Shown here one piece after another: positions 39,000-39,193 of a DNA stretch of 64,000 nucleotides. The notes beneath the pieces were generated by a model. It was not told where the DNA came from, made no database searches, and worked only from the letters and a program-made list of their open reading frames with translations. This DNA comes from a virus (Duplodnaviria > Heunggongvirae > Uroviricota > Caudoviricetes), in the IMG/VR virus record IMGVR_UViG_3300031787_000010, positions 9,429-73,428 of that record; one strand, given 5' to 3'. The stretch's first letter is position 1; each line of letters starts with the position of its first letter. The position numbers and the translations under genes are program-made.

Positions 39000-39108
39000 G
39001 CAATACTGATGAGGCCTTAATGGCCGAAAGGTTTCCCACGGCGATTCTAGAGCATGGGGAAATTAAAATGGGACACACTCATAGAACGCCGGTCCCTACC
39101 TCTATTGC
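39000..39108 (+). ncRNA. type I hammerhead ribozyme
   Basis: Stem I GCAATA/TATTGC, CTGATGA core, stem II GGCC-TTAAT-GGCC, GAAA, stem III AGGT/ACCT, CUC cleavage triplet (cut after 39102). Confidence 0.85.
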
Positions 39109-39193
39109 AAGGAGACTTCCTCGTAAACGTATGTACGAGAATTAGTCTAATCAATGATGGTAAATGGTAAGCGCACCAGACTCATTGGCCCAC

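What the first reader, a model, noticed from the sequence alone, without database searches (positions are those of the whole stretch)
39000..39119. Type I hammerhead ribozyme carrying a 65-nt two-hairpin kissing-loop domain in stem III
Seen: all core positions match (CUGAUGA 39006-12, G10.1-C11.1, GAAA 39026-29, CUC 39100-02, 6-bp stem I). Loop III is replaced by hairpin A (39033-39061) and hairpin B (GGGAC/GTCCC, 39070-39096), whose loops are complementary over 12 bp with two single bulges (GGCGATTCTAGAG 39040-52 with CTCATAGAACGCC 39078-90). I do not recognise this architecture. Inference: a pseudoknotted or switchable domain that could make cleavage conditional, or a cargo RNA.
Basis: partly seen in the sequence, partly recalled or inferred. 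Interest (0 to 1): 0.85.

Follow-up and report, generated by a model that had tools for sequence, protein, structure and literature searches.

The report
Phage hammerhead with swappable RNA module
A genuine self-cutting hammerhead ribozyme sits just behind a small lipoprotein gene in a lake phage's tRNA region, and the odd 65-base "insert" in one of its arms is a separate, conserved RNA module that related phages carry with or without the ribozyme.

Summary
Positions 39000-39108 form a complete type I hammerhead, predicted to cut after C39102. Its stem III is capped by a 65-nt domain, M1, with two 5-bp hairpins whose loops are complementary over 12-13 bp. Six hammerheads at the same site in related freshwater phages keep the core and show compensatory changes in 4 of 6 stem I pairs and 3 of 4 stem II pairs. 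The ribozyme belongs to a large phage subfamily with a 6-bp stem I that Rfam does not call.

M1 is an independent module. Behind the same gene, relatives carry hammerhead plus M1, a hammerhead with a plain stem III, hammerheads with other large inserts, M1 with no hammerhead, or neither. Across four M1 haplotypes the hairpin stems and the A-rich linker never change. The loop-loop helix shows one compensatory change and four uncompensated breaks.

Four lake metatranscriptomes cover the gene plus ribozyme and stop at or just before the cut site. One contig ends in sequencing adapter 2 nt short of it.

Best reading: the ribozyme sets the mRNA 3' end and M1 is a structured cap. A cleavage-gating switch is not excluded. 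This scan has reported phage tRNA-array hammerheads before, on other DNA.

The parts
38847..38999 (+). 50-aa lipoprotein ORF (lipobox LTAC). Its stop codon abuts stem I of the ribozyme.
   Evidence: Homologous ORFs precede the same site in all relatives. RNA contigs cover it.
39000..39005 (+). Hammerhead stem I, 5' strand (GCAAUA).
   Evidence: Pairs with 39103-39108. 4 of 6 pairs show compensatory double changes among six syntenic hammerheads.
39006..39012 (+). Catalytic core C3-A9 (CUGAUGA).
   Evidence: Invariant in relatives except the free position 7, which is C in L360.
39013..39025 (+). Stem II hairpin (GGCC, loop UUAAU, GGCC).
   Evidence: 3 of 4 pairs covary. The loop type UNANU is shared by the phage subfamily.
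39026..39029 (+). Core G12 A13 A14 and A15.1 (GAAA).
39030..39032 (+). Stem III 5' strand (GGU). It is also the closing helix P3 of module M1.
   Evidence: Pairs with ACC 39098-39100. Kept in the hammerhead-less M1 copies.
39033..39061 (+). M1 hairpin A: stem UUCCC/GGGAA with a 19-nt loop.
   Evidence: The stem is invariant in 4 haplotypes. It can extend over GGU with AUU 39062-64.
39062..39069 (+). M1 A-rich linker (AUUAAAAU).
   Evidence: Invariant in 4 haplotypes.
39070..39096 (+). M1 hairpin B: stem GGGAC/GUCCC with a 17-nt loop.
   Evidence: The stem is invariant in 4 haplotypes.
39039..39052 (+). Strand b of the long-range helix, lying in the loop of hairpin A.
   Evidence: 13 pairs with 39078-39091. 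8 are invariant, 1 is compensatory (G39040-C39090 becomes A-U) and 4 are broken in some haplotype.
39078..39091 (+). Strand b' of the long-range helix, lying in the loop of hairpin B.
   Evidence: As for strand b. A39081 is deleted in three haplotypes.
39098..39102 (+). Stem III 3' strand (ACC), U16.1 and C17. The predicted cut lies between 39102 and 39103.
   Evidence: Geometry of the motif. RNA contigs of 4 metatranscriptomes end at 39069-39100 and none crosses. One ends in adapter at 39100.
39103..39108 (+). Stem I 3' strand (UAUUGC). This is the 5' end of the downstream cleavage product.
39194..39222 (+). Sigma-70-type promoter-like site (TTGACA, 17 nt, TATACT) that restarts transcription towards the tRNA-like RNA and tRNA-Met (context).
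   Evidence: 11 of 12 consensus matches. Conserved in L022, L357 and L365.

Best explanation
This is an active type I hammerhead of a widespread phage subfamily (6-bp open stem I, 4-bp stem II). It lies in the 3' UTR of a small lipoprotein gene inside the phage's tRNA array.

The ribozyme cuts between C39102 and U39103. That separates the lipoprotein mRNA from the downstream promoter and tRNA unit. The mRNA is left ending in a 2',3'-cyclic phosphate buried in a compact hammerhead plus M1 structure.

The 65-nt 'insert' M1 is an independent, exchangeable RNA module: a three-way junction of P3, hairpin A and hairpin B with a GC-rich loop-loop or long-helix complementarity. In this lineage it occupies the stem III loop. 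Its most likely role is a structured 3'-terminal cap or stabiliser of the lipoprotein transcript, not a part needed for catalysis.

Shown: the motif, its covariation, the modular independence of M1, the conservation pattern of M1, and RNA coverage that stops at the site. Inferred: cleavage chemistry in vivo, the stabilising role, and the 3D fold of M1.
For: - The core and all three stems are complete, and this is the only such site in the genome.
- Six syntenic hammerheads (window, L357, L365, L372, L022, L274) keep the core and have no broken pair in stems I and II. There are 7 pairs with compensatory changes.
- A covariance model built from 38 phage type I hammerheads scores the site at 34.7 bits, E 4e-7.
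- M1 occurs at about 90% identity without a hammerhead in L300, L291, L251 and L249, directly before a tRNA-like RNA.
- L372 and L373 have the hammerhead with a plain 7-bp stem III and near-identical flanks.
- M1 is not protein-coding: a 1-nt indel separates haplotypes.
- The 12 variable columns of M1 avoid the 28 columns of hairpin stems and linker, P = 0.0012.
- In four metatranscriptomes from four studies, contigs cover 38711-39100 and nothing from 39105 to 39474. One contig ends CCC plus Illumina adapter at 39100, and it carries the L357 haplotype.
Against: - No cleavage assay exists. Assembled contigs cannot prove an RNA end, and the adapter-marked end is 2 nt short of the predicted cut.
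- Stem III is only 4 bp. Nearest-neighbour ensembles give it P about 0.5 here and 0.05 or less in the L357 and L365 haplotypes.
- With 40-nt flanks the minimum-energy fold is not the hammerhead.
- The stabiliser role is untested.
- Rfam hammerhead models do not reach threshold.
Confidence: 0.6

Rival explanations
1. M1 is a conformational switch that gates the ribozyme. In one fold (long helix b/b', or the P3/A/B junction) stem III forms and the RNA cuts. In the other, hairpin A extends over GGU 39030-32 by pairing with AUU 39062-64, stem III is lost and the RNA stays intact. A ligand, a protein, temperature or the terminating ribosome would shift the balance. That would make it a natural counterpart of engineered stem III aptazymes.
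For: - The window's ensemble splits about 52% stem III formed against 45% extended hairpin A.
- In L357 and L365 the extended-A fold dominates.
- The three layers of complementarity are each far beyond chance.
- The linker containing AUU is invariant.
- Stem III is short only in the M1-bearing hammerheads.
Against: - M1 exists and is conserved without any ribozyme, so its selected function cannot be ribozyme control alone.
- The syntenic hammerheads with other inserts or none have stable stems III and no bistability.
- The energy differences are 1-4 kcal/mol, within model error, and ignore hammerhead tertiary structure.
- RNA of the L357 haplotype, predicted 'off', still ends at the site.
- No ligand-pocket-like conserved internal loop was identified, and no Rfam aptamer matched.
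Confidence: 0.17
2. The hammerhead is a decaying relic that no longer cuts efficiently. M1, or simple read-through processing by host RNases, does the work, and the RNA ends seen are nuclease stops at a stable structure.
For: - The site is evolutionarily labile. The hammerhead is absent in many relatives.
- L274 carries GUAA instead of GAAA, that is A13U.
- Stem III is weak in the M1-bearing copies, and L357 has a U-C mismatch in it.
- The RNA end mapped 2 nt upstream of the predicted cut.
Against: - All conserved core positions are intact in four haplotypes. The changes that do occur are compensatory in stems or fall at the free position 7. That pattern indicates continuing selection for the ribozyme fold.
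- There is no terminator-like U-run at the site.
Confidence: 0.12
3. M1 is a small regulatory or protein-binding RNA (a 3'-UTR-derived sRNA). It is released or exposed by processing: by the hammerhead here, and by RNase P cutting at the adjoining tRNA-like RNA in relatives. The loops b and b' would be target- or partner-binding surfaces rather than partners of each other.
For: - M1 is more conserved than the neighbouring ORF: about 90% against unalignable DNA.
- In L300 it is flanked by U6 tracts and followed by a tRNA-like RNA.
- Hairpin plus A/U-rich linker plus hairpin is an sRNA-like layout (established knowledge of Hfq-type sRNAs; a recalled resemblance only).
- Uncompensated changes occur in b/b'.
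Against: - No target was identified.
- The distribution is narrow: four haplotypes, one phage group.
- The b/b' complementarity is far beyond chance, and one compensatory change supports pairing.
Confidence: 0.08

Closest known systems
Type I hammerhead ribozymes of phages and prophages (Perreault et al. 2011, PMC3088659; Rfam clan with RF00163)
   Same: Identical catalytic core, A15.1-U16.1 pair, C17, three-stem junction and open stem I. The intergenic phage location matches. The site shares the 6-bp stem I, 4-bp stem II with a 5-nt UNANU loop, and the AA tail seen in more than 60 IMG/VR phage examples.
   Different: 71 nt lie between A15.1 and U16.1, against 12-16 in most relatives and at most about 46 in my sample. 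Stem III is only 4 bp and opens into a conserved three-way-junction module. The ribozyme lies directly after a stop codon rather than 10-25 nt before a start codon. It is not called by Rfam, nor are its short-stem relatives.
Engineered hammerhead aptazymes with an aptamer grafted on stem III (recalled from the literature, e.g. Hartig-lab TPP and theophylline switches; not checked here)
   Same: A folded domain replaces the stem III loop, and a short communication helix could couple its fold to stem III formation.
   Different: This case is natural. No ligand is known, coupling is only predicted in silico, and the domain also exists without the ribozyme.
Discontinuous hammerhead in mammalian Clec2 3' UTRs (Martick et al. 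2008; recalled, not checked here)
   Same: A hammerhead in an mRNA 3' UTR, interrupted by a long insert, with proposed control of mRNA fate.
   Different: There the insert is hundreds of nt and splits a different stem, in a eukaryotic context. Here a 65-nt structured module caps stem III in a phage.
Hammerhead-associated phage RNAs found earlier in this scan (e1-3379012, e1-3444460, e1-270463: hammerhead nested in or fused to a conserved double-pseudoknot RNA in tRNA arrays)
   Same: A phage tRNA-array setting. A hammerhead is physically combined with a conserved pseudoknot-capable RNA that also occurs without it.
   Different: Here the module sits inside the ribozyme's stem III, not the ribozyme inside the module. 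M1 is 65-71 nt and was found in only one phage group. I could not compare sequences with those families.
MALAT1/mascRNA-type 3'-end formation (RNase P cut at a tRNA-like structure leaves a structured, protected 3' end; established knowledge)
   Same: In the hammerhead-less relatives, M1 is followed after U6 by a tRNA-like RNA. An RNase P cut there would leave M1 at the mRNA 3' end, just as the hammerhead does here.
   Different: This is purely an analogy of layout. No triple helix or RNase P cleavage has been shown.

Membership tests
Hammerhead ribozyme (class) | Conserved core C3 U4 G5 A6 N7 G8 A9 ... G12 A13 A14 | tested here: met
   CUGAUGA is at 39006-12 and GAA at 39026-28. The core is invariant in close haplotypes apart from N7.
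Hammerhead ribozyme (class) | A15.1-U16.1 pair followed by H17 (not G) at the cleavage site | tested here: met
   A39029-U39101 and C39102.
Hammerhead ribozyme (class) | Three helices around the core, supported by covariation | tested here: met
   Stems I and II: 7 of 10 pairs show compensatory changes and none is broken in six syntenic copies. Stem III is paired in all copies, at 4, 3+, 4, 8, 7 and 8 bp.
Hammerhead ribozyme (class) | Site-specific self-cleavage giving 2',3'-cyclic phosphate and 5'-OH | not testable with these tools
   Only a hint is available. RNA contigs of 4 metatranscriptomes stop at 39069-39100, and one ends in adapter at 39100.
Hammerhead ribozyme (class) | [quoted passage not shown] | tested here: inconclusive
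   Loop II (UUAAU) and the AA tail match the subfamily pattern, but no defined pairing partner was found. AUUAA 39062-66 in M1 is complementary to loop II, but this is an all-A/U 5-mer of low significance.
Rfam Hammerhead_1 / _II / _3 (RF00163, RF02276, RF00008) | Score at or above the gathering threshold | tested here: not met
   The best hit is 16.1 bits against 48.5 for RF00008, with a wrong topology. RF00163 and RF02276 gave none. Short-stem relatives also fail, so this reflects model reach, not absence of the motif.
Phage type I hammerhead subfamily (6-bp stem I; model R1 built here) | Significant match to a covariance model of 38 members | tested here: met
   34.7 bits, E 4e-7. The 3' half is misplaced by the model because of the insert. 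L022 scores 23.5 bits. The seed set was collected with a pattern derived from this site, so core and stem II are partly circular.
Kissing-loop complex (both hairpins plus loop-loop helix at once) | Hairpin stems and inter-loop helix coexist | not testable with these tools
   Secondary-structure energies treat them as alternatives: -16.9 against -15.9 kcal/mol for the insert alone. Hairpin stems are invariant. The inter-loop helix has 1 compensatory and 4 broken pairs. By my steric reasoning, only the 5-bp CGGCG/CGCCG part looks compatible with both hairpins.
Riboswitch or allosteric ribozyme | Ligand- or signal-dependent change of fold that alters cleavage | not tested
   Only in-silico bistability is available. 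No Rfam aptamer match was found.

The most novel reading that the evidence does not exclude
M1 is a natural sensor or switch domain grafted onto stem III. This would make it the first natural allosteric hammerhead (a natural 'aptazyme'): competition between stem III and the extended hairpin A, modulated by a ligand, a protein or the terminating ribosome, decides whether the lipoprotein mRNA is cut free. The module would be portable between ribozyme and non-ribozyme contexts.
Probability: 0.12. Interest if true: 0.85.

Novelty: new variant of a known kind. Interest (0 to 1): 0.55.

Why it matters
The biological role of bacterial and phage hammerheads is still open (review PMC6765202). This locus offers an unusually clean natural experiment. 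Related lake phages carry, at one site, the ribozyme alone, the ribozyme with three different large stem III domains, the domain alone, or neither. The transcript is also detectable in environmental RNA.

That allows direct tests of two questions. Does a hammerhead define and stabilise an mRNA 3' end? Can a structured domain on stem III tune cleavage, which has so far been achieved only by engineering?

The work also documents a large phage hammerhead subfamily that Rfam 15 thresholds miss, and shows that ribozyme stems can serve as docking sites for exchangeable RNA modules.

Tried and rejected
- Rfam at gathering and E-value thresholds gave no hammerhead call. The RF00008 alignment (38987-39033) imposes a type III topology with G at 16.1 and no stem I hairpin, so I rejected it.
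- GenBank phage BLAST of 38800-39400 gave no match.
- An exact stem II pattern in IMG/VR gave none.
- Two M1 patterns in IMG/VR returned only the four L300-type contigs, or chance SD-ATG matches. M1 is absent elsewhere in the genomes of L274 and L003.
- The second CTGATGA...CGAAA match, at 53081-53107 on the minus strand, has no hammerhead stems in my scan.
- The ORF 39020-39145 over the ribozyme is rejected as coding, because a 1-nt indel separates haplotypes.
- L022 and L274 inserts are not homologous to M1 by eye or by fold.
- Loop II pairing with AUUAA in M1, and b' pairing with AUGAG of the core, are 5-mers expected by chance, so I did not pursue them.
I draw no conclusion from it.
- The absence of RNA cover over 39105-39474 in four runs is only a weak hint.
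- Contigs with the identical lipoprotein gave no sequence variation.
- The covariation statistic on M1 (4 haplotypes) is not significant, at 134 of 500 shuffles.

Full report
**Context.** The window is part of a 166.6-kb IMG/VR phage record. It recurs in many lake and freshwater metagenomes. It carries a tmRNA gene and more than 30 tRNA genes. The finding lies between tRNA-Gln (38616-38686) and tRNA-Met (39385-39458). It sits directly after a 50-aa lipoprotein ORF (38847-38999, lipobox LTAC).

**Observation.**
- Stem I is 39000-05 with 39103-08.
- CUGAUGA is at 39006-12.
- Stem II is GGCC/GGCC with loop UUAAU.
- GAAA is at 39026-29.
- Stem III is A-U plus GGU/ACC.
- C17 is 39102.

The minimum-energy fold of 39000-39108 is the hammerhead three-way junction. 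The 65-nt insert (39033-39097) contains hairpin A (UUCCC/GGGAA) and hairpin B (GGGAC/GUCCC). Their loops are complementary over 12-13 bp with two bulges.

All of this is beyond chance.
- This is the only type I hammerhead descriptor hit in the genome, against 0.055 per shuffled genome.
- Both hairpin stems arise, given the long helix, in 8e-4 of shuffles.
- The loop-loop duplex energy is reached in 13 of 20,000 shuffles.
- The sequence is identical in 6 independent assemblies; a 7th contig matches as far as it reaches but breaks off inside M1.

**Is it a real hammerhead?** Rfam does not call it. It also misses short-stem relatives, so the failure reflects model reach.

A pattern scan of IMG/VR returned more than 80 phage type I hammerheads with the same build:
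- a 6-bp open stem I;
- a 4-bp stem II with a 5-nt UNANU loop;
- usually 12-16 nt between A15.1 and U16.1;
- UC at the cut;
- an AA tail.

A covariance model of 38 of them scores this site at 34.7 bits, E 4e-7.

The decisive evidence is synteny. Behind the homologous lipoprotein gene I found five further hammerheads: L022, L274, L357-359, L365/366 and L372/373. Among the six copies, 4 of 6 stem I pairs and 3 of 4 stem II pairs carry compensatory double changes, and no pair is broken. The core is invariant except for two changes. L360 has C at the free position 7. L274 has an A13U change and is probably crippled.

**What is the insert?** It is an independent module, which I call M1 (39030-39100 including its 3-bp closing helix). 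Five arrangements occur at this one site.
- M1 without a hammerhead. In L300, L291, L251 and L249 the same domain, about 90% identical, follows the lipoprotein stop codon with no hammerhead at all. It is flanked by U6 tracts and followed directly by a conserved tRNA-like RNA and a terminator.
- Hammerhead without M1. L372 and L373 have the hammerhead with a plain 7-bp stem III capped by ACAA, and flanks nearly identical to the window.
- Hammerhead with other inserts. L022 and L274 have unrelated inserts of 78 and 60 nt.
- Hammerhead plus M1. This is the window, L357 and L365.
- Neither. Many relatives have neither element.

So the stem III loop is a docking site for exchangeable RNA. M1 is not required for the ribozyme, nor the ribozyme for M1. 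M1 is not coding, because a 1-nt indel separates haplotypes. No Rfam family matches it. I found it only in this phage group.

**Structure of M1.** Four haplotypes are available.
- The ten hairpin stem pairs and the 8-nt linker never vary.
- The 12 variable columns avoid those 28 columns, P = 0.0012.
- Of the 13 long-range b/b' pairs, 8 are invariant and one is compensatory (G39040-C39090 becomes A-U in L365). Four are broken without compensation.

Thermodynamically the long helix and the two hairpins are near-equal alternatives: -16.9 against -15.9 kcal/mol for the insert alone, and a 52:45 split in the ensemble.

My steric reasoning, which is inference, is as follows. Linkers of 1-4 nt cannot span a 12-bp loop-loop helix while both hairpins stand. 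The invariant 5-bp CGGCG/CGCCG segment could coexist with both, stacking on hairpin B. That would give a compact pseudoknotted three-way junction. The comparative data are too thin to decide; the covariation statistic is not significant.

**Coupling to catalysis.** In the M1-bearing ribozymes stem III is only 3-4 bp. Hairpin A can extend over GGU by pairing with AUU of the linker. The predicted probability of stem III is about 0.5 here and 0.05 or less in L357 and L365. It is above 0.9 in L372, L022 and L274. This keeps a switch model alive. The differences are within model error, however, and hammerhead tertiary structure is ignored.

**Expression.** Logan contigs of four freshwater metatranscriptomes from four studies cover the ORF and ribozyme, with ends at 39069, 39072, 39087 and 39097(+3). 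None covers 39105-39474. DNA contigs run through the site.

The X15 contig (38711-39097) continues with CCC and then Illumina adapter. CCC is the L357 haplotype at 39098-100. So the fragments ended at 39100, 2 nt before the predicted cut. There is no terminator-like feature at that point.

This is a weak-to-moderate hint of a defined RNA 3' end at the ribozyme. It is not proof. Another RNA run holds words from the downstream stretch. That fits the conserved promoter-like site at 39194-39222.

**Mechanism proposed.** The hammerhead cuts the lipoprotein mRNA free of the downstream tRNA unit. It leaves a 3' end with a cyclic phosphate inside a compact ribozyme plus M1 fold, and M1 acts as a 3'-terminal cap. 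In hammerhead-less relatives, an RNase P cut at the adjoining tRNA-like RNA would leave M1 in the same terminal position (inference). The rivals are a gating switch, a decaying relic, and an sRNA-like function of M1.

**Comparison and novelty.** The ribozyme class and its presence in phages are known (PMC3088659). Its function in bacteria and phages is unresolved (PMC6765202). This scan has reported hammerheads in phage tRNA arrays and hammerhead-linked pseudoknot RNAs on other DNA.

Three things are new here: a conserved, independently occurring, bistable module housed in stem III; the natural series of with and without variants at one locus; and environmental RNA evidence. I rate it a new variant of a known kind.

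Noticed in passing
window 39311-39379 (also L300 9197-9265, L252, L273, L274, L022 and others): A conserved 69-71-nt tRNA-like RNA (M2). It has a 7-bp acceptor-like stem GCGGUUC/GAACCGC that covaries (C-G becomes U-A), an anticodon-like loop with UCC, and an odd T-loop UGCAACU. Mean identity is 85% in 11 phage contigs. Neither ARAGORN nor Rfam calls it, even at E of 10 or less. In L252 and L273 it sits directly behind tRNA-Gln.
   Followed up: partly
window 39262-39310: The leader in front of M2 has a hairpin GGGGA...UCCCC. Its loop AUGGUUG is complementary to CAACCAU 39300-06, across a GAAGUGCGCACUUC hairpin. The pseudoknot pairing covaries in L363 (UGAUUG/CAAUCA). Together with M2 it spans about 122 nt, so it may be the 'hammerhead-linked double-pseudoknot RNA' of earlier notes. 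In L274 it follows the hammerhead within 16 nt.
   Followed up: partly
window 39150-39222: A strongly conserved block (GGUAAAUGGUAAGCGCACCAGACUCAUUG...) leads into a TTGACA-17-TATACT promoter-like site. It is kept in L022, L357, L365 and L372. The block resembles a tRNA fragment, or could be an upstream promoter or operator element.
   Followed up: no
L274 2048-2159 (IMGVR_UViG_3300024346_000008): A syntenic hammerhead with covarying stems but GUAA in place of GAAA (A13U). It is probably inactive or very slow.
   Followed up: partly
L087-L205 (IMG/VR): A large subfamily of phage type I hammerheads with a 6-bp stem I. They mostly lie 10-25 nt upstream of a Shine-Dalgarno sequence and start codon. 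Seven loci tested gave no Rfam 15 hammerhead call at gathering thresholds.
   Followed up: partly
window 39109-39145: The 3' cleavage product starts with AAGGAGA, like the subfamily's ribosome-binding sites. Only a 4-codon ORF follows (AUG 39131), and its AUG is lost in L357. It looks like a remnant of a former downstream gene.
   Followed up: no
window 38847-38999: Small lipoprotein gene conserved at 47-94% across at least 12 protein clusters in freshwater metagenomes. Its mRNA is the only part of this stretch seen in four metatranscriptomes. It has no PHROG family.
   Followed up: partly
window 28814-29154 (minus strand): A phage-encoded tmRNA (143 bits), beside an array of more than 30 tRNA genes.
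   Followed up: no
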